From the sequence record PZ179883.1: 64,000 nt of DNA, one strand, 5' to 3'. A program made the translations under genes and the position numbers. Positions 29,506 to 36,410 of the stretch are shown piece by piece. Within the stretch, counting starts at the first letter, position 1, and the number at the start of each line of letters is the position of its first letter. The notes below the pieces were generated by a model, which worked only from the letters and a program-made list of their open reading frames with translations, was not told the DNA's origin and made no database searches. This DNA is from a phage.

Positions 29506-31554
29506 TTATCCTTGAACGAACTTGTAAGGCATGTTTGTAATATCTATGCAAGACGCAATAATTCCAAGAGATGATTCTACTTTCTGTTTAACATTTGATG
29601 AAACAAATGATGCAAAGTCAACTCTATCTTCTATATCACCTGTCATTGTAACTACTTCGCCGGTTTCCATTAAACGGTCACCGTCATAAATTACTGATTC
29701 GGTGAGTTCTTCGGTGGTCATAACTTCAGCTTGAATAAGCTTGTTGTTAGTTTTGACTGTTCCATCATTGTAAGATGCATCAGTTATTTTATTAACTTTG
29801 ACCATTAATCCACGTGGCAAAATGACTTCCATTTCATTTGAAGGCGCTAAACTTCCACCGGGTAAAACAACATTGACTTTATCAGCCCCAGTAATAACCC
29901 ATCCAATTCCGACTAAATTATCGCTAGAATTAACAAGCCCTTCATCATTTTTATCGATAGAAATGTTTAGACGCTTTTCATCTGGTAAAACACCAACAGC
30001 TGAATCAGTCATCCAAGTACCAAAAATGTTTGGATATAATGATGTTGATACAAAATTTCTAAAATAAAAAACTCGATTTTTTACCATTGCTTCGTATATT
30101 GAAGGTAACATTCGTTGTGAACGATACAAAGTAATACCTTTTGGTAATCGTTCACCATTTTTAAAGGCTGAATCTAAATTATCAATAGCTTTTTCTATGT
30201 CAGATGCTGTCAAAATACTTGTACGCTCATCTGGATTATATAATCCCAAAAGAGCATTATTTATGTCTACATATCCTGAACCTACGTATTCACGAATTCC
30301 GCGTTTTTGTGCTGGTGTGTATTTAGATGAATCTTTATTTTCGACTATAGGATGTAATGACCATCCAGCTGTAAGAGCATATCCACGTAATTCTCTTCGA
30401 ATAATCTTTGTTTTTATTGCATTCCAAGAATTTTGTACTAACTCATTTGCAGCATCTTGGTTTAAATGCGAATGTTTGTTAATATTTCTTTCAAACCAAG
30501 CACCTTTATATTTTTCTAAAGTATCATCGACGATAGAAGCAATAGTTTCTAAAGTTTTTATTGAAGTAATAGATTCTTTTCGTAATTTTTCTAAAGCTTT
30601 ATTTTTTATTTCTGCATTAATAATGGATTCTTTATCTTCAGGAATTATAGAAGCTTCTCTGAATGCCATCCCAGCTGTAACACTGCTAAGAGCATTCTCT
30701 AGTGCAAATCCTGAAGTAGAAATTACCGTTAATTCATTAGAATCAGAAATTAAAGGCGCGTCCGCTGGTTTATTTAATTCTGCCGCTGAAGCCTCAAATT
30801 TTTGAAACATCGGTGTTTCAAATCTAGAAGATTCCAATGACTGACTTTGTGCAATTGCTCTACGGGAAATTTTAACTTTAACGATTACAGCTTGGTCAGA
30901 ACGTTTATCATTTTCTTGTGCAATAGATGCTGCAATTGCCTCATTTTTGGTTACTTGAGCTCCGGTATCTTTATTGATATAAACATCACCGACCTTCGAT
31001 TCAACTTTAGTAAAGAGCTCGGTACTAATTTCCGGAACTCCTGGAATGTCTTCTAGTGATACATTTTTGCGATGTATAAGAATATATGCATACTTTTTAT
31101 CATAATCCCAGAGTTCCTTAAGAAGGACGTATCTGCCACCTGAACGACTACGGATAAGTCTATCAGCAATAAGTTGAATTTGTCGAGCTTGACCAGCAGT
31201 TTTAGACTTAAGAATACGAAGCATGCAGGCATCAATTTTATACTGACGCATCGTCTGCATTGCAACAGTAAAAACTGAATTGATATAATTAATTGGGCTT
31301 GGACCGAGACCTTTCAATTTAGCAATTGAACCTTTAGCAGTTAATGTAAAAGGAACAATGTGCATCATTTTATCGCCCATCTTTAGATCACGGTTAGTAT
31401 CACCTCCAGATGTATAGGTACATAAACGAAAGCCTGGTTGTTCAATTGCGTCATCAACATGAACTGAAAAAATTTGCGGTATTTTCTTCTTTGGATTTAA
31501 GTTTGTAATCGGAAGAGTAGTATCTTCGTCAAATAATTCTGTAATGAGTTCCAT
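29506..31554 (-). CDS. alt: Alt ADP-ribosyltransferase (capsid-packaged)
   Basis: 682 aa from MELITELFD; matches recalled T4 Alt; TLYRSQ, FVSTSL and EMEVILPRG motifs. Confidence 0.93.
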   Translation of the reverse strand: MELITELFDEDTTLPITNLNPKKKIPQIFSVHVDDAIEQPGFRLCTYTSGGDTNRDLKMGDKMMHIVPFTLTAKGSIAKLKGLGPSPINYINSVFTVAMQTMRQYKIDACMLRILKSKTAGQARQIQLIADRLIRSRSGGRYVLLKELWDYDKKYAYILIHRKNVSLEDIPGVPEISTELFTKVESKVGDVYINKDTGAQVTKNEAIAASIAQENDKRSDQAVIVKVKISRRAIAQSQSLESSRFETPMFQKFEASAAELNKPADAPLISDSNELTVISTSGFALENALSSVTAGMAFREASIIPEDKESIINAEIKNKALEKLRKESITSIKTLETIASIVDDTLEKYKGAWFERNINKHSHLNQDAANELVQNSWNAIKTKIIRRELRGYALTAGWSLHPIVENKDSSKYTPAQKRGIREYVGSGYVDINNALLGLYNPDERTSILTASDIEKAIDNLDSAFKNGERLPKGITLYRSQRMLPSIYEAMVKNRVFYFRNFVSTSLYPNIFGTWMTDSAVGVLPDEKRLNISIDKNDEGLVNSSDNLVGIGWVITGADKVNVVLPGGSLAPSNEMEVILPRGLMVKVNKITDASYNDGTVKTNNKLIQAEVMTTEELTESVIYDGDRLMETGEVVTMTGDIEDRVDFASFVSSNVKQKVESSLGIIASCIDITNMPYKFVQG

Positions 31555-31577
31555 CATATCCTCTCTAGTGTTTATTC

Positions 31578-31607: not shown

Positions 31608-31795
31608 TAATAATCTAATGGTAAGAGAGTACGATATATTTCAAACTTTGGCCCTTTTTCATAGGCATCAAATGTTTCTGTAAATTTATTATAAGCATAT
31701 GCATCTACAAATTCGAGAATGACTTGTGATACAGAAGTAGAAACATCTCCACCTTCTTTTTGAGCTATAACAATTGTTTCTAAGTAAGCTTTCAT
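31607..31795 (-). CDS. hypothetical protein between gene 30 and alt
   Basis: 62-aa ORF overlapping gene 30 stop by 4 nt. Confidence 0.6.
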   Translation of the reverse strand: MKAYLETIVIAQKEGGDVSTSVSQVILEFVDAYAYNKFTETFDAYEKGPKFEIYRTLLPLDY

Positions 31796-33252
31796 AGACC
31801 AGTTACCTCATGAAAATCACCAAATACATCCTCGAATGTATTAGCTTTAGTTTTATCTTCACGTAAACGAATCGCAATCGGAAGAAATAATTTAACGTAA
31901 TCAGTGCGGCCATCAGATTTTAACCAACCGTTGCATTCGCACTCTAGAATTTTTCCAATATAATAATTTTGGTTTTCCATAATGCGAGTACGGTCAAGTT
32001 CATGTGATTTTACACCAGCTTTATCTTTTAAACCTGAACCAGCATTTACCTTAATTTTTCCACACTCTGATTCAAGAATAAATCCACCTGCTTTAGTAGG
32101 GTCTTTACGGTGAGGATAAATTCCTACAATTTTTAAATCAACATCAATTACTTCTTTAAATTTATAGAGATTTTTTGAACGAGCATTTTCCCACAATCCA
32201 TCGGTATTTTTGAGAATAATACCTTCAAGACCTCGGTCAATATATTTTTTATAAATTACCTTAGCTTCATCTAGGTTATTTACTACCTGGTTTTCAATTA
32301 AAATTACTTTATCATATCCTGATGTCATTTGTTCTAGTTTAGAAAAACGTACATCATATTTTAAACGAAACGCCGGAAGACCGTATATTTCTACCAACGG
32401 GACATAATCCCAGACCTGAAACTTCATACATTTGGCTTCTTTTTCTGAAATAGTTCCCTTTAAAGATTTATTGGCGATTCCATTAGAAGCAGTACGAGAT
32501 TCAGCTACTTCAGCAAACTCTTTAACTTTACTATTTTCAGGAGAGTCAAAAAGAAAATCTAGGCCTTCTGGCTCCTTTTCAACTTGCTCATGGTATACCA
32601 ATTCGCCATCAATTAACACACCTTCTGGATGAATCTGACGGACTTCAGCAGTCATTTTGATTAACTCTTCCTTAAGAAGATCTAATCCTAGATATTCATT
32701 GCCAGCTCGTGATAAAAGACGAACATCATCTAATTCATCACCTCGGACTTCAGCAAAACACCGAGCTCCATCTGCTTTTAACTGCGCAAAAGCTGGAAAC
32801 TTGATATTCTTACTAATGCCTTTTTCATCATAAGAACTTGCCAGCATTTGAGGTTGTTCAGGAATTAAACCTGGCCAAACTTTGTTTGCAATAGATACTG
32901 AAGCACCACATTCAAGGTCTCGCATCATAACTCGACGCAAAACTTCAACATCATCCTTTTTACCATCGGTGATATACCCGATTAATTCCTCAATTGCTGC
33001 ATTTCCAGTCAATTTCCGAGTAGCTAACGTGAATTCAATGAAGTCAAGCATATCGGTAATAGTCAACATTCCAAAACTCTGGGTAGCAATACCAGGTTTA
33101 GGCCATTTCTTGATATAATACTGTAACCCACGAGAATAAGTCAGACGATATACTCGTTTAAGCAATTCATTATCTTTATTCTTTTCAAGAATTGCTTGCT
33201 TCTGCTTAGTTGATCCAATAGATGCTATTTCATTCAGAATTTTAAGAATCAT
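31792..33252 (-). CDS. 30: ATP-dependent DNA ligase
   Basis: 486 aa; KADGAR adenylation motif; matches T4 ligase. Confidence 0.97.
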   Translation of the reverse strand: MILKILNEIASIGSTKQKQAILEKNKDNELLKRVYRLTYSRGLQYYIKKWPKPGIATQSFGMLTITDMLDFIEFTLATRKLTGNAAIEELIGYITDGKKDDVEVLRRVMMRDLECGASVSIANKVWPGLIPEQPQMLASSYDEKGISKNIKFPAFAQLKADGARCFAEVRGDELDDVRLLSRAGNEYLGLDLLKEELIKMTAEVRQIHPEGVLIDGELVYHEQVEKEPEGLDFLFDSPENSKVKEFAEVAESRTASNGIANKSLKGTISEKEAKCMKFQVWDYVPLVEIYGLPAFRLKYDVRFSKLEQMTSGYDKVILIENQVVNNLDEAKVIYKKYIDRGLEGIILKNTDGLWENARSKNLYKFKEVIDVDLKIVGIYPHRKDPTKAGGFILESECGKIKVNAGSGLKDKAGVKSHELDRTRIMENQNYYIGKILECECNGWLKSDGRTDYVKLFLPIAIRLREDKTKANTFEDVFGDFHEVTGL

Positions 33253-33518
33253 TGCTCATCCTTCAAGGTTTGGTTTACAGCTCTATTATAAATCAATTCA
33301 TCATTAAGCTCAGGCAAAGACCTATGATATGTAGTTCTAACTTTATTTCCTTGCATCCAATGCTTGACATAAATGAAACCTTGTTCTACACATTTTTTAA
33401 AAATTCGTTCGTCTTTTTGAGCACGGAATTCTGGATTGCATCTAAAAAATTGATTTACGTGACCGTAATCACGTGTAGTATTACCTTCATTTTCATAAAT
33501 AGTATGAACAACAAACAT
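33249..33518 (-). CDS. hypothetical protein (30.1 position)
   Basis: 89-aa ORF overlapping neighbours. Confidence 0.7.
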   Translation of the reverse strand: MFVVHTIYENEGNTTRDYGHVNQFFRCNPEFRAQKDERIFKKCVEQGFIYVKHWMQGNKVRTTYHRSLPELNDELIYNRAVNQTLKDEQ

Positions 33519-34357
33519 TAGAATGCTCCTTGGAAAATATTATCACCGCTAGTAGGTCTATTATACAAATACTCTATGCCACCAGGTTTAATGTAGTTCC
33601 ATGTCTGAAACGGATGTGTCTGATATGGATGATATAGATGATTATAAGGATTAAATCCAGGCGTTCTCCAGGTAGTGTTCCAAGGAAAAGAATCGTTTTT
33701 AACCATCTTCTCAATTAAATCTTTTATAGCTTTTTCACTATCAAAACTTTCTTTATTTTCCTTTGGTGAAAAAAGCTTATTTTCTACATCATTCCATGTA
33801 TAAACTCGCTGCGCAGTTTTTGGAATATTGTCACGCTCTCCTCGAGCCATCCAATAAACTGGAACATTTAATATTTCACTCGCATGATCGCAGTGATGGG
33901 CGAGATCGTCAATATAACAAATTACGTTATATTTCTCTTTTGCCTTTTTGAACAGCTCTTCTTTTGAAGAATCATGACCACACATCATTACTTCTGAGAA
34001 GGCACCAGGAAAAAGAGCATTCAAATTAAATTGACGATTCAACAGAGCGTCAATAGAATCACCCAATGCGGTAACAGCTACAAAATTATAATCTTCTTTT
34101 AATTTGTTAATTACACACAGGGCATCTTTATATGGAGACAAGTAACGAATAAAATCCGAACGATTGTATTTTTCAATTAACTTGACGCCAAGTTCTTCGT
34201 CACAATTAAAGAGTTTACCTGGAGAAATAAATTTCTCATCTTGGATCATTTTTAAAATATGTTCTAATGGAAGATTATATTTTTGAGCAAAATAAGGAAG
34301 GCCTGATTGCCAGCTTAAACAAACTCCATCAATATCAGTTAAAATAGTTGGCTTCAT
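33518..34357 (-). CDS. HAD-superfamily-like hydrolase (30.2 position)
   Basis: N-terminal LTDIDGV (DxDG motif I) and a later DD motif; 279 aa. Confidence 0.7.
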   Translation of the reverse strand: MKPTILTDIDGVCLSWQSGLPYFAQKYNLPLEHILKMIQDEKFISPGKLFNCDEELGVKLIEKYNRSDFIRYLSPYKDALCVINKLKEDYNFVAVTALGDSIDALLNRQFNLNALFPGAFSEVMMCGHDSSKEELFKKAKEKYNVICYIDDLAHHCDHASEILNVPVYWMARGERDNIPKTAQRVYTWNDVENKLFSPKENKESFDSEKAIKDLIEKMVKNDSFPWNTTWRTPGFNPYNHLYHPYQTHPFQTWNYIKPGGIEYLYNRPTSGDNIFQGAF

Positions 34358-34818
34358 AGAGAGTCTCTTAATAGGTTTAACACATCAATAAATTCAGCTT
34401 CGGTTAGTATTGTATCATCTTTTGTTAGACCACTAGCCATGCTGTGCTTCAAAACTTTTTCTTTCGAGGCTTGTAATGCATCACGAAAGCCCCTGTTTTG
34501 GATCGCTGCTTCAAAATATGCATTTGTGTATAATTCTTTCCACGCTGGAGAGTATCTTGAAAATGGAACTCCAAGCCAGAACAACGTGCCACGGTCCTGA
34601 GCTCTAGCATAAGATCTTCCAGCTTGTCGGGCGGCAAGCCCGGATAACCCAAATATACGTCTTTGCTGTTCAACATTTTTCACCTTACATCCTTGGAGGA
34701 ATCCTTCGAGACCTCCAAATTGAATACCGTCCATAACAAAAGGCCATTGAGCGAAATTACTTAATGCACATGATGGCCATCTAAAATTGCTTCTTATCTC
34801 TAGCTCAGACATTTTCAA
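34354..34818 (-). CDS. NADAR/YbiA-like (DUF1768-type) protein (30.3 position)
   Basis: LSNF...DG...E...Q...K pattern typical of YbiA/NADAR fold; 154 aa. Confidence 0.65.
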   Translation of the reverse strand: MKMSELEIRSNFRWPSCALSNFAQWPFVMDGIQFGGLEGFLQGCKVKNVEQQRRIFGLSGLAARQAGRSYARAQDRGTLFWLGVPFSRYSPAWKELYTNAYFEAAIQNRGFRDALQASKEKVLKHSMASGLTKDDTILTEAEFIDVLNLLRDSL

Positions 34819-35011
34819 TACTTATAATTTCAACATCAGCCCAATGACCATAGCAAGGAAGACGAAATTCAACTGGCCAGTTAGGGTCCTTTTCTAATAT
34901 AATAGACTCAACTTGTGGTTCTTCATGTTCATCAGTATATGGATTTTTATCTGTTACTTTATATGTGACCTTAATGTACTGAATTCCAAAAATCTTATTA
35001 ATTATATTCAT
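34805..35011 (-). CDS. hypothetical protein (30.x)
   Basis: 68-aa ORF in operon context. Confidence 0.55.
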   Translation of the reverse strand: MNIINKIFGIQYIKVTYKVTDKNPYTDEHEEPQVESIILEKDPNWPVEFRLPCYGHWADVEIISIENV

Positions 35012-35205
35012 ACTAATTCCTTTAATCCGTAAATAGGAGATAATTCATCACCCATACGAAGGTCTTCATTTCCATCTAACCAGGAAACAATATAAGCCTC
35101 TTTTATTTGAATACCACTCCATTTAAATGGAGGTAGAACCTTAGAAATTAATCCAGGTATACCAACTCCCTTTAATTCAACAGTTTGACCTAAAAAGAAT
35201 TTCAT
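35008..35205 (-). CDS. hypothetical protein (30.x)
   Basis: 65-aa ORF, ATGA overlaps on both sides. Confidence 0.55.
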   Translation of the reverse strand: MKFFLGQTVELKGVGIPGLISKVLPPFKWSGIQIKEAYIVSWLDGNEDLRMGDELSPIYGLKELV

Positions 35206-35967: not shown

Positions 35968-36300
35968 TTATTTTACTACTTTCCAGTGCTGCATGTCAAG
36001 TTTGCCAACTTTTTTCATCTTCTCAATTAAGCGTTCTGCACGTTGGCGAGCTGTAACATAATACCATTCACCTAATTCATTTTGTTCAATTTTTCCAACG
36101 ATTACTGTATTCAATTCATAAATCCAACCAGTAAAGAAATTATGAACTTGAATTGTAAAGGTGAAATCTGTTCCCATACCTTCTGTTGTTTCTACTTCAA
36201 TAATATCACCTTCAACTGCCATTAAGAACCACATAGTTTCATCATATTTACCATTGAAACATTTAGTTTTAATTGTAGCGTTCAGATTAATCGTTTTCAT
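35968..36300 (-). CDS. hypothetical protein (30.x)
   Basis: 110-aa ORF. Confidence 0.65.
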   Translation of the reverse strand: MKTINLNATIKTKCFNGKYDETMWFLMAVEGDIIEVETTEGMGTDFTFTIQVHNFFTGWIYELNTVIVGKIEQNELGEWYYVTARQRAERLIEKMKKVGKLDMQHWKVVK

Positions 36301-36373: not shown

Positions 36374-36405
36374 TGGAAAATAAAAAAGGACTCCCGAAGG
36401 AGTCC
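36374..36405 (-). terminator. rho-independent terminator (minus strand)
   Basis: AGGACUCC-UUCG-GGAGUCCU hairpin followed by UUUUUUAUUUU. Confidence 0.8.
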
Positions 36406-36410
36406 TCAAC

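What the first reader, a model, noticed from the sequence alone, without database searches (positions are those of the whole stretch)
33518..34818. Adjacent HAD-like hydrolase and NADAR/YbiA-like genes downstream of DNA ligase
The 279-aa ORF starts with a DxDG(V) HAD motif I (ILTDIDGV), suggesting a phosphatase or nucleotidase. The overlapping 154-aa ORF has the LSNF...DG...E...Q...K signature of the YbiA/NADAR fold. NADAR proteins have been reported to remove ADP-ribose from guanine bases in DNA, so in a phage that itself injects ADP-ribosyltransferases and must survive host ADP-ribosylating defences, this gene is a candidate counter-defence or self-protection factor. The pairing with a putative phosphatase is suggestive of nucleotide or ADP-ribose processing but the function is unproven.
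Basis: inference. Interest (0 to 1): 0.45.

Follow-up and report, generated by a model that had tools for sequence, protein, structure and literature searches.

The report
T4 AdfN anti-DarT gene plus HAD phosphatase
These are genes 30.3 and 30.2 of a T4-like phage: 30.3 is the published NADAR enzyme AdfN, which strips ADP-ribose off phage DNA to defeat the bacterial DarTG1 defence, and 30.2 is an uncharacterised HAD-family phosphatase that is not needed for that job, so the finding is correct but mostly known.

Summary
The window is a Tequatrovirus (T4-like) genome segment. The two ORFs exist as described, on the minus strand, and overlap by ATGA.

**The 154-aa ORF.** Its likely true start is the ATG at 34812, giving 152 aa. 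It is T4 gp30.3: Pfam PF08010 at 8e-70 and 147/152 residues identical to the T4 protein. Its AlphaFold model (pLDDT 95) finds only the three solved NADAR structures. E36, K43 and the subfamily-specific H123 are present, and so is the C-terminal helix that RB69 lacks. This protein is already published as AdfN. It is a DNA ADP-ribosylglycohydrolase, necessary and sufficient for T-even resistance to DarTG1 (Nat Commun 2025; Toxins 2024).

**The suggested functional pairing is not supported.**
- Only 22 of 80 gp30.3 loci have gp30.2 within 8 kb.
- gp30.2 stays with the DNA ligase gene instead (68 of 79 loci).
- In a published T4 transposon screen, 30.2 insertions were neutral on DarTG1 (log2FC −0.12), while 30.3 insertions were lost (−7.25).

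Verdict: correct, ordinary and already known.

The parts
34354..34812 (-). Gene 30.3 / adfN: 152-aa NADAR-fold DNA ADP-ribosylglycohydrolase. The mechanical ORF extends to a TTG at 34818, giving 154 aa.
   Evidence: PF08010 at E=8e-70. 147/152 identical to T4 gp30.3. AF2 pLDDT 95, pTM 0.90. Foldseek top three hits are all NADAR structures. Function shown for the T4 orthologue in PMC11825919 and PMC11125620.
34705..34707 (-). Codon GAA = Glu36 of AdfN (E38 in the 154-aa numbering), a catalytic residue.
   Evidence: Read directly from the sequence. Invariant in 110 homologues. E36A impairs AdfN-T4 (PMC11825919).
34684..34686 (-). Codon AAG = Lys43 of AdfN (K45 in the 154-aa numbering), a catalytic residue.
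   Evidence: Sequence. Conserved in at least 90% of homologues. K43A impairs AdfN-T4.
34444..34446 (-). Codon CAC = His123 of AdfN (H125 in the 154-aa numbering). This last-strand His defines the gp30.3 subfamily and replaces the Glu of YbiA and the Asp of DarG1-type NADARs.
   Evidence: Sequence. Invariant in 110 homologues. Subfamily definition quoted from PMC11125620.
34354..34401 (-). C-terminal helix of AdfN (residues about 138-152) and stop codon. This helix is intact here and is lost in the DarTG1-sensitive phage RB69.
   Evidence: DSSP helix 140-153 in the 154-aa numbering. RB69 30.3 is annotated at 137 aa. Truncation reduces activity.
34354..34357 (-). ATGA overlap: the stop codon of 30.3 overlaps the start codon of 30.2 (translational coupling inferred).
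   Evidence: Sequence ...tctctATGAagcca....
33767..34357 (-). Gene 30.2, HAD phosphatase core (residues 1-197). Motif I is D8-x-D10, followed by a C1 helical cap (about residues 16-86), motif II T96, motif III K132 and motif IV D150-D151.
33518..33766 (-). Gene 30.2 C-terminal tail (residues 198-279 plus stop). It is aromatic- and Pro-rich, modelled with low confidence, and variable among homologues.
   Evidence: pLDDT 39-62 in nearly all 10-residue blocks after residue 200, apart from a predicted helix at 202-220. Column occupancy and identity are low and family lengths range from 176 to 347 aa.
34805..35011 (-). Gene 30.4 (68 aa, no Pfam match), immediately upstream. Its stop overlaps the adfN ATG region by 8 nt.
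   Evidence: phrog_2042. It is the only other significant gene in the published T4 DarTG1 transposon screen.
33249..33518 (-). Gene 30.1 (DUF3045, 89 aa). Its start overlaps the 30.2 stop by 1 nt (TAATG).
   Evidence: PF11243 at E=1.6e-63. Sequence.
31792..33252 (-). Gene 30, ATP-dependent DNA ligase. This is the conserved neighbour of 30.2.
   Evidence: PF01068 at E=2.4e-31. The ligase gene lies within 8 kb of gp30.2 in 68 of 79 viral loci.
29506..31557 (-). alt, the packaged ADP-ribosyltransferase (context only).
   Evidence: PF03496 at E=3.1e-36.
35970..35999 (-). Best sigma-70-like promoter match upstream of 30.7. It is the possible start of the 30.7-30 early transcription unit. No terminator-like site was found on the minus strand between it and the ligase gene.
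   Evidence: Consensus scan, 11/12 match. The number of matches in the region is no higher than in shuffles, so this is only an inference.

Best explanation
The region carries two independent accessory early genes of a T4-like phage, which happen to be adjacent and translationally coupled in this lineage.

(1) Gene 30.3 is adfN, a stand-alone NADAR-fold glycohydrolase. When a host DarT1 toxin ADP-ribosylates guanines in replicating phage DNA, AdfN hydrolyses the ADP-ribose-guanine bond using E36, K43 and the subfamily-specific H123. This restores a replicable template and lets the phage plaque on DarTG1 hosts. That mechanism is shown experimentally for the T4 protein. It is inferred for this allele, which is 97% identical, full length and has intact catalytic residues.

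(2) Gene 30.2 is a Mg2+-dependent HAD phosphomonoesterase. It has a DxD nucleophile/general-acid pair and a C1 helical cap, which points to a small-molecule substrate. The fold and motifs are shown here. A nucleotide monophosphate substrate is inferred from its nearest relatives, the NT5C 5'(3')-deoxyribonucleotidases. The gene is dispensable in the laboratory and is not part of the anti-DarTG1 mechanism.
For: Identity of the window: megablast gives about 97% identity to many Tequatrovirus genomes.

AdfN:
- PF08010 at 8e-70.
- 147/152 identical to T4 gp30.3.
- AF2 pLDDT 95.
- The Foldseek top three hits are the only NADAR structures, 2b3w, 8bat and 8bau, with probabilities 0.99-1.00; the next hit has E above 4.
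- The family profile hits YbiA as its best PDB match, E=0.009.
- 43 of 110 family members also match PF08719, best E 2.8e-7.
- E38 and H125 are invariant and K45 nearly so.

Published experiments on AdfN:
- adfN deletion makes T4 and T2 unable to plaque on DarTG1 hosts. Ectopic AdfN-T4 rescues RB69. Purified protein removes ADP-ribose from DNA. E36A and K43A are impaired (PMC11825919).
- Independent in vitro activity on guanine-ADP-ribose but not thymidine-ADP-ribose (PMC11125620).
- An independent transposon screen gives 30.3 a log2FC of −7.25 on DarTG1.

gp30.2:
- All four HAD motifs are conserved.
- AF2 core pLDDT is above 90.
- Foldseek E of about 2e-8 to YfnB and cdN. The deoxyribonucleotidase entries give the highest target-normalised TM-scores (0.63-0.71) and the lowest rmsd.
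- The family profile's best PDB hit is cdN 2jao, aligning DGVxxxW-SGL with DGVLADFESGL.
- NT5C is the commonest specific Pfam hit among close relatives (23/98) and distant relatives (19/54, best 4.2e-10).

Independence of the two genes: and the transposon data.
Against: - The window's own AdfN sequence does not reach Pfam NADAR at E≤1. The link is by fold and through intermediate sequences.
- AdfN-T4 does not neutralise DarT1 in uninfected E. coli and only partly rescues T5 and Bas25. An unidentified T-even factor may therefore be needed, and the mechanism is not fully closed.
- The transposon comparison used one library per condition (header).
Confidence: 0.85

Rival explanations
1. Functional pair: gp30.2 works with AdfN in one pathway. 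It might dephosphorylate an ADP-ribose-derived product, or it might be the unidentified T-even factor that AdfN-T4 needs for full activity.
For: - The two genes overlap by ATGA and are probably co-transcribed.
- They are adjacent in Tequatrovirus, Mosigvirus and some Acinetobacter and other T4-like phages (22 of 80 loci).
- PMC11825919 states that an unknown T-even-encoded factor is needed.
- RB69, in which ectopic AdfN-T4 works, carries 30.2.
- The two genes occur in similar numbers of phage records, 1511 and 1440, with similar host distributions.
Against: - T4 insertions in 30.2 (71 sites) are not depleted on DarTG1: log2FC −0.12, p=0.61. Insertions in 30.3 are lost.
- Only 22 of 80 gp30.3 loci and 31 of 79 gp30.2 loci have the partner within 8 kb.
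- At least 8 genomes carry both genes more than 50 kb apart, for example Aeromonas 44RR2.8t and Serratia CBH8.
- No weak HAD hit appears near distant gp30.3 genes even at E≤1, and they have no recurrent neighbour.
- Co-occurrence is expected from shared descent within Straboviridae.
Confidence: 0.04
2. gp30.2 is a DNA end-healing 3'-phosphatase that prepares nicks for the neighbouring DNA ligase, like the HAD-type phosphatase domain of T4 Pnkp.
For: - The ligase gene lies within 8 kb of gp30.2 in 68 of 79 viral loci, almost always immediately downstream.
- There is a weak PHROG hit to polynucleotide kinase, phrog_415, E=0.002 over residues 74-177.
Against: - The model has a C1 helical cap between motifs I and II, with helices at about residues 16-86. 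From established knowledge of the HAD superfamily, this is typical of small-molecule HAD phosphatases; enzymes that act on macromolecules are usually capless.
- The nearest specific relatives are NT5C nucleotidases, not Pnkp.
- T4-like genomes are broadly syntenic, so linkage to the ligase gene may be historical.
Confidence: 0.1
3. The main role of AdfN is not DNA repair against DarT1. Instead it degrades soluble ADP-ribose-derived immune signals, or it reverses modifications made by the phage's own ADP-ribosyltransferases (Alt, ModA, ModB).
For: - Iyer et al. proposed on contextual grounds that phage NADARs mainly target low-molecular-weight ADP-ribose derivatives, and noted early co-expression with ADP-ribosyltransferases in T4-like phages (PMC9503650).
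- alt lies about 3 kb away in this window.
Against: - Direct experiments show DNA de-ADP-ribosylation and a DarTG1-specific requirement.
- alt insertions are neutral on DarTG1.
- gp30.3 genes in distant phages are not linked to alt.
- An additional role is not excluded.
Confidence: 0.08

Closest known systems
AdfN-T4 (T4 gp30.3), anti-DarT factor NADAR (Johannesman et al., Nat Commun 2025, PMC11825919)
   Same: 147/152 identical. Same length, same position between 30.4 and 30.2, same catalytic E36 and K43, the same subfamily His, and an intact C-terminal helix.
   Different: Five differences from the one T4 sequence compared (a mutant T4 clone): four substitutions, none at a reported catalytic position, and a one-residue gap at window R52. 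The activity of this allele has not been tested.
DarG1-type NADAR antitoxins (e.g. Geobacter lovleyi NADAR, PDB 8bat)
   Same: Same fold (Foldseek probability 0.99) and the same chemistry, removal of ADP-ribose from guanine in DNA.
   Different: - No adjacent DarT toxin, so it is an orphan.
- It lacks the N-terminal extension.
- It has His in place of the last-strand Asp.
- It does not protect uninfected E. coli from DarT1.
E. coli YbiA (PDB 2b3w), housekeeping NADAR
   Same: It is the best structural and sequence-profile match: Foldseek E=2.4e-5 with TM 0.68, and profile E=0.009. It shares the SNF...DG...E..Q..K motif.
   Different: 19% identity. YbiA has Glu where gp30.3 has His. YbiA is linked to riboflavin-intermediate N-glycosidase activity and sits in a LexA-controlled operon.
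NT5C family 5'(3')-deoxyribonucleotidases (cdN/mdN, PDB 2jao, 2i7d, 1q92; S. epidermidis 3bwv)
   Same: HAD core with a four-helix C1 cap and a DxD motif followed by an aromatic residue and SGL. These entries give the highest TM-scores normalised to the target, and family members hit PF06941.
   Different: The window protein does not reach any Pfam threshold and is 14-21% identical. It carries an extra, poorly structured tail of about 80 aa. The substrate is unknown.
T4 Pnkp phosphatase domain (HAD-type polynucleotide 3'-phosphatase)
   Same: Phage-encoded DxD HAD phosphatase. There is a weak PHROG similarity.
   Different: gp30.2 has a cap domain and no kinase domain, and the similarity is marginal.

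Membership tests
NADAR superfamily | [quoted passage not shown] | tested here: met
   AF2 model with pLDDT 95 and alternating short strands and helices. The Foldseek top three hits are the three NADAR structures, TMq 0.58-0.68, and there are no other hits below E=4.
NADAR superfamily | Conserved catalytic Glu and Lys of the E..Q..K motif (E36 and K43 in AdfN-T4). | tested here: met
   Both are present. E is invariant and K is conserved in at least 90% of 110 homologues. Mutational evidence comes from PMC11825919.
NADAR superfamily | Significant match to the Pfam NADAR model PF08719. | tested here: inconclusive
   The window protein matches only PF08010 at E≤1. However, 43 of 110 family members match PF08719 (best 2.8e-7) and the family profile hits YbiA at E=0.009.
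gp30.3 / AdfN-T4 subfamily of NADAR | Histidine in the last strand in place of the Glu (YbiA) or Asp (DarG1-type). | tested here: met
   H123 (CAC at 34444-34446) is invariant in 110 homologues. The definition is taken from PMC11125620.
gp30.3 / AdfN-T4 subfamily of NADAR | Full-length protein with the C-terminal helix, not the RB69-type frameshift. | tested here: met
   152 aa, with a helix at residues 140-153 of the 154-aa numbering. RB69 30.3 is 137 aa.
gp30.3 / AdfN-T4 subfamily of NADAR | Guanine-specific DNA ADP-ribosylglycohydrolase activity and DarTG1 counter-defence. | not testable with these tools
   Shown for the T4 protein, which is 97% identical. Inferred for this allele.
DarT-NADAR (DarTG1) toxin-antitoxin system | An adjacent DarT ADP-ribosyltransferase toxin gene. 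| tested here: not met
   The neighbours are 30.4 (68 aa, no Pfam match) and the HAD protein 30.2. The nearest ADP-ribosyltransferase is Alt (PF03496), about 3 kb away and not a DarT. AdfN is an orphan antitoxin-like gene.
HAD superfamily phosphatases | Motif I DxDx(T/V), with the second Asp that marks phosphotransferases. | tested here: met
   T-D8-I-D10-G-V. D8 and D10 are invariant in 98 close and 54 distant relatives.
HAD superfamily phosphatases | Motif II Ser/Thr, motif III Lys and motif IV acidic pair. | tested here: met
   T96 (94/98), K132 (98/98), D150 and D151 (97/98 each).
HAD superfamily phosphatases | Rossmannoid HAD core fold with a cap insertion (C1 type). | tested here: met
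NT5C 5'(3')-deoxyribonucleotidase family (PF06941) | Match to the family model above the Pfam threshold. | tested here: not met
   No Pfam hit for the window protein at E≤1. Only some relatives match: 23/98, best 1.2e-4, and 19/54, best 4.2e-10. It is therefore filed as NT5C-like, not as a member.
NT5C 5'(3')-deoxyribonucleotidase family (PF06941) | dNMP phosphatase activity. | not testable with these tools
   No biochemical data were found.

The most novel reading that the evidence does not exclude
gp30.2, the conserved NT5C-like HAD phosphatase of T4-like phages, is a conditional counter-defence or pool-editing enzyme. Its phenotype would appear only against a host system not yet tested, for example one that uses a nucleotide-derived signal or toxic nucleotide, or another guanine-ADP-ribosylating toxin.

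Alternatively, the unidentified T-even factor that potentiates AdfN-T4 is encoded in this same cluster. The translationally coupled 68-aa gp30.4 is the only other significant gene in the DarTG1 transposon screen.
Probability: 0.1. Interest if true: 0.5.

Novelty: already known. Interest (0 to 1): 0.12.

Why it matters
It has been published and verified genetically and biochemically for the near-identical T4 gene, so this window adds one more intact adfN allele and nothing conceptually new.

Two points are left over. First, gp30.2 is a widely conserved, confidently folded HAD phosphatase with no known substrate or phenotype. It has about 1,440 phage records and at least 1,259 representative relatives. 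Second, the literature still lacks the T-even factor that AdfN-T4 needs outside infection. The evidence gathered here argues that gp30.2 is not that factor.

Tried and rejected
- **Direct sequence searches.** Pfam, NCBIfam and PDB searches with gp30.2 alone gave nothing significant. Alignment profiles and structure prediction were needed.
- **Conserved operon.** I tested whether 30.2 and 30.3 form one by anchoring on each gene in IMG/VR loci. This was rejected: 22/80 and 31/79. Relaxing the HAD search to E≤1 added nothing.
- **Recurrent neighbours.** Distant gp30.3 genes have none; the most common neighbour is shared by 5 of 58 loci.
- **Domain fusions.** Fusions of gp30.2-like and gp30.3-like proteins carried no informative extra Pfam domains.
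- **gp30.2 as the missing AdfN potentiating factor.** Rejected on the published T4 transposon data.
- **Literature on gp30.2.** Two searches found nothing.
- **Other screen conditions.** I fetched one more part of the HIDEN-SEQ table to look for a 30.2 phenotype in another condition. It was a DarTG2 page without the 30.2 row, and I did not pursue it.
- **Promoter and terminator scan.** The number of sites was no higher than in shuffles, so transcription-unit statements remain inference.
Full report
**What the window is.** Megablast of 33200-35100 finds 680 phage records, the best about 97% identical. Nearly all are Escherichia, Shigella or Yersinia T4-like phages. The local gene order on the minus strand is the T4 order:
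- alt (29506-31557, PF03496)
- alt.1
- gene 30 DNA ligase (31792-33252, PF01068)
- 30.1 (DUF3045)
- 30.2 (33518-34357)
- 30.3 (34354-34818)
- 30.4 to 30.9, then rIII and gene 31.

**Observation check.** Both ORFs exist as stated, and both quoted motifs are in the sequence. The ORFs overlap by ATGA. 30.2 overlaps the 30.1 start by one base (TAATG).

The mechanical 154-aa ORF starts at a TTG. The ATG two codons later (34812) is the start used in the T4, T2 and RB69 annotations and by the closest homologues. It overlaps the 30.4 stop by 8 nt, so the protein is most likely 152 aa. In the direction of transcription both genes lie upstream of the ligase gene, not downstream.

**The 154/152-aa protein.**
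- It matches Pfam PF08010 (Phage_30_3) at 8e-70.
- It is 147/152 identical to T4 gp30.3.
- Alone, it gives only a marginal hit to E. coli YbiA (E=1.3). A profile of 110 homologues hits YbiA as its best PDB match (E=0.009). Of those homologues, 43 also match Pfam NADAR PF08719 (best 2.8e-7).
- The AlphaFold2 model is confident (pLDDT 95, pTM 0.90).
- In the PDB, Foldseek finds YbiA (2b3w, E=2.4e-5, TM 0.68), Geobacter lovleyi NADAR (8bat) and Phytophthora NADAR with ADP-ribose (8bau). Nothing else scores below E=4.
- E38 and H125 are invariant and K45 nearly so across 110 homologues, in ORF numbering. These are E36, K43 and H123 of the 152-aa protein.

**This is already known.**
- PMC11125620 (Toxins 2024) states that phage NADARs are 'also termed gp30.3 proteins' and carry His where YbiA has Glu and DarT-linked NADARs have Asp. 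It shows that a phage-encoded NADAR from an E. coli phage (later cited by PMC11825919 as AdfN-T4/gp30.3) removes ADP-ribose from guanine but not thymidine in DNA in vitro, without rescuing DarT1 toxicity in cells.
- PMC11825919 (Nat Commun 2025) renamed 30.3 adfN. Deleting it makes T4 and T2 unable to plaque on DarTG1 hosts. Ectopic AdfN-T4 restores RB69. E36A and K43A are impaired. The RB69 allele is frameshifted and lacks the C-terminal helix. The purified enzyme de-ADP-ribosylates DNA.
- An independent T4 transposon screen (bioRxiv 10.1101/2025.11.20.689424) finds 30.3 insertions lost on DarTG1. Its Data S6 sheet gives log2FC −7.25 and adjusted p of 0.
- The window allele is full length, with the C-terminal helix modelled. 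RB69's is 137 aa.

**The 279-aa protein.**
- No Pfam, NCBIfam or PDB sequence hit is significant for the protein alone. It belongs to phrog_420, function unknown.
- Across 98 homologues, D8, D10 and K132 are invariant. T96, D150 and D151 are nearly so. These are the four HAD motifs, with the second Asp that marks phosphotransferases.
- The AlphaFold2 model has pLDDT above 90 for residues 1-197, with a helical cap between motifs I and II. The last 80 or so residues are poorly predicted and poorly conserved.
- Foldseek gives 116 PDB hits at E≤0.001; the 50 listed are all HAD-fold proteins. The 5'(3')-deoxyribonucleotidase entries (2jao, 2i7d, 4yih, 1q92, 3bwv) have the highest target-normalised TM-scores and the lowest rmsd.
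- The family profile's best PDB hit is cdN 2jao (E=0.1), aligning DGVxxxW-SGL with DGVLADFESGL.
- NT5C (PF06941) is the commonest specific Pfam hit among close relatives (23/98). It is also the commonest among distant relatives recovered from 1.84 billion representatives (19/54, best 4.2e-10).

I therefore call it an NT5C-like HAD phosphatase. I do not file it as an NT5C member, because the window protein fails the family threshold. No literature on gp30.2 was found.

**Is the pairing functional?**
- Among 80 IMG/VR loci anchored on a gp30.3 homologue with ±8 kb, only 22 contain a gp30.2 homologue. All 22 are T4-like loci: 21 also carry the ligase gene and the remaining one (L005, a short contig) carries the 30.4-gene 31 neighbours. 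L031 carries only a weak upstream HAD hit and no other T4 marker.
- Relaxing the HAD search to E≤1 adds none.
- Among 79 loci anchored on gp30.2, gp30.3 is nearby in 31 and the ligase gene in 68, almost always immediately downstream.
- At least eight genomes carry both genes more than 50 kb apart. In Aeromonas phage 44RR2.8t, 30.3 sits inside the tRNA cluster next to vs.6.
- Distant gp30.3 genes have no recurrent neighbour at all. This fits the description of phage NADARs as stand-alone proteins (PMC9503650).
- In the T4 screen, 30.2 is non-essential on K-12, with 72 of 72 sites hit. It is neutral on DarTG1: 71 sites, log2FC −0.12, p=0.61.

The adjacency is therefore lineage-specific synteny, and gp30.2 is not required for AdfN's known function.

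**An open point.** Both experimental papers report that AdfN-T4 works fully only during T-even infection, and PMC11825919 invokes an unknown T-even factor. gp30.2 would be the obvious positional candidate, but the transposon data argue against it.

The only other significant gene in that screen is 30.4 (log2FC −1.79, adjusted p=0.014). This is the 68-aa gene whose stop overlaps the adfN start. A polar or translational-coupling effect on adfN is the simplest reading. A cofactor role is not excluded. RB69 carries both 30.2 and 30.4, so it does not discriminate between them.

**Verdict.** The fold assignments and the counter-defence idea are correct but already published and experimentally established. 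The suggested functional link between the two genes is not supported. Novelty: already known. Interest is low. The residual value lies in gp30.2 being a widespread phage phosphatase with no known substrate.

Noticed in passing
window 34805-35011 (-): Gene 30.4 (68 aa, no Pfam match) overlaps the adfN start by 8 nt. In the published T4 DarTG1 transposon screen it is the only significant gene besides 30.3 (log2FC −1.79, adjusted p=0.014). It is either a polar or coupling effect on adfN, or a candidate for the unknown T-even factor that AdfN-T4 needs.
   Followed up: partly
window 34449-34676 (-): A 75-aa ORF in an alternative frame lies entirely inside adfN. It corresponds to the 30.3' gene annotated in phage T2. 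There is no evidence here that it is expressed.
   Followed up: no
window 33521-33766 (-): The C-terminal tail of gp30.2, about 80 aa, is rich in aromatic residues and Pro (e.g. FPWNTTWRTPGFNPYNHLYHPYQTHPFQTWNY). It is mostly modelled with low confidence. It is variable or absent in homologues, whose lengths range from 176 to 347 aa.
   Followed up: partly
L160 (Aeromonas phage 44RR2.8t) 4001-4450: In this T4-like phage the 30.3 homologue lies inside the tRNA gene cluster, between vs.6 and tRNA-Arg. That is about 60 kb from its 30.2-ligase block, so gp30.3 is the mobile member of the pair.
   Followed up: yes
proteins P0037, P0059, P0102 (gp30.3 homologues of about 290 aa): These longer homologues show two stretches of PF08010. 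This suggests tandem or partially duplicated NADAR domains. phrog_652, with a 296-position profile, matches the window protein only at positions 126-272.
   Followed up: partly
alignment A2 (gp30.3 family): 34 of 110 family members also match Pfam PF22075 (DUF6939; best E=1.6e-4). That uncharacterised family may be another NADAR relative.
   Followed up: no
protein P0033 and the hit list: The gp30.3 family is large: 4088 proteins at E≤0.01 among only 8000 scored candidates. It includes copies on long bacterial contigs, for example a Bacteroides MAG contig of 995 kb. It is therefore not confined to T4-like phages.
   Followed up: no
L162 (phage RB69) 8268-8681: RB69 30.3 is annotated at 137 aa. 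Its stop lies 42 nt before the 30.2 start, so the frameshift that inactivates AdfN in RB69 also removes the ATGA overlap with 30.2.
   Followed up: partly
window 36386-36407 (-) and 35970-35999 (-): There is a strong terminator-like hairpin (9 pairs followed by a T-run) downstream of the 30.9-like ORF. There is also an 11/12 sigma-70-like promoter match just upstream of 30.7. Together they may delimit the early transcription unit that includes 30.3 and 30.2.
   Followed up: no
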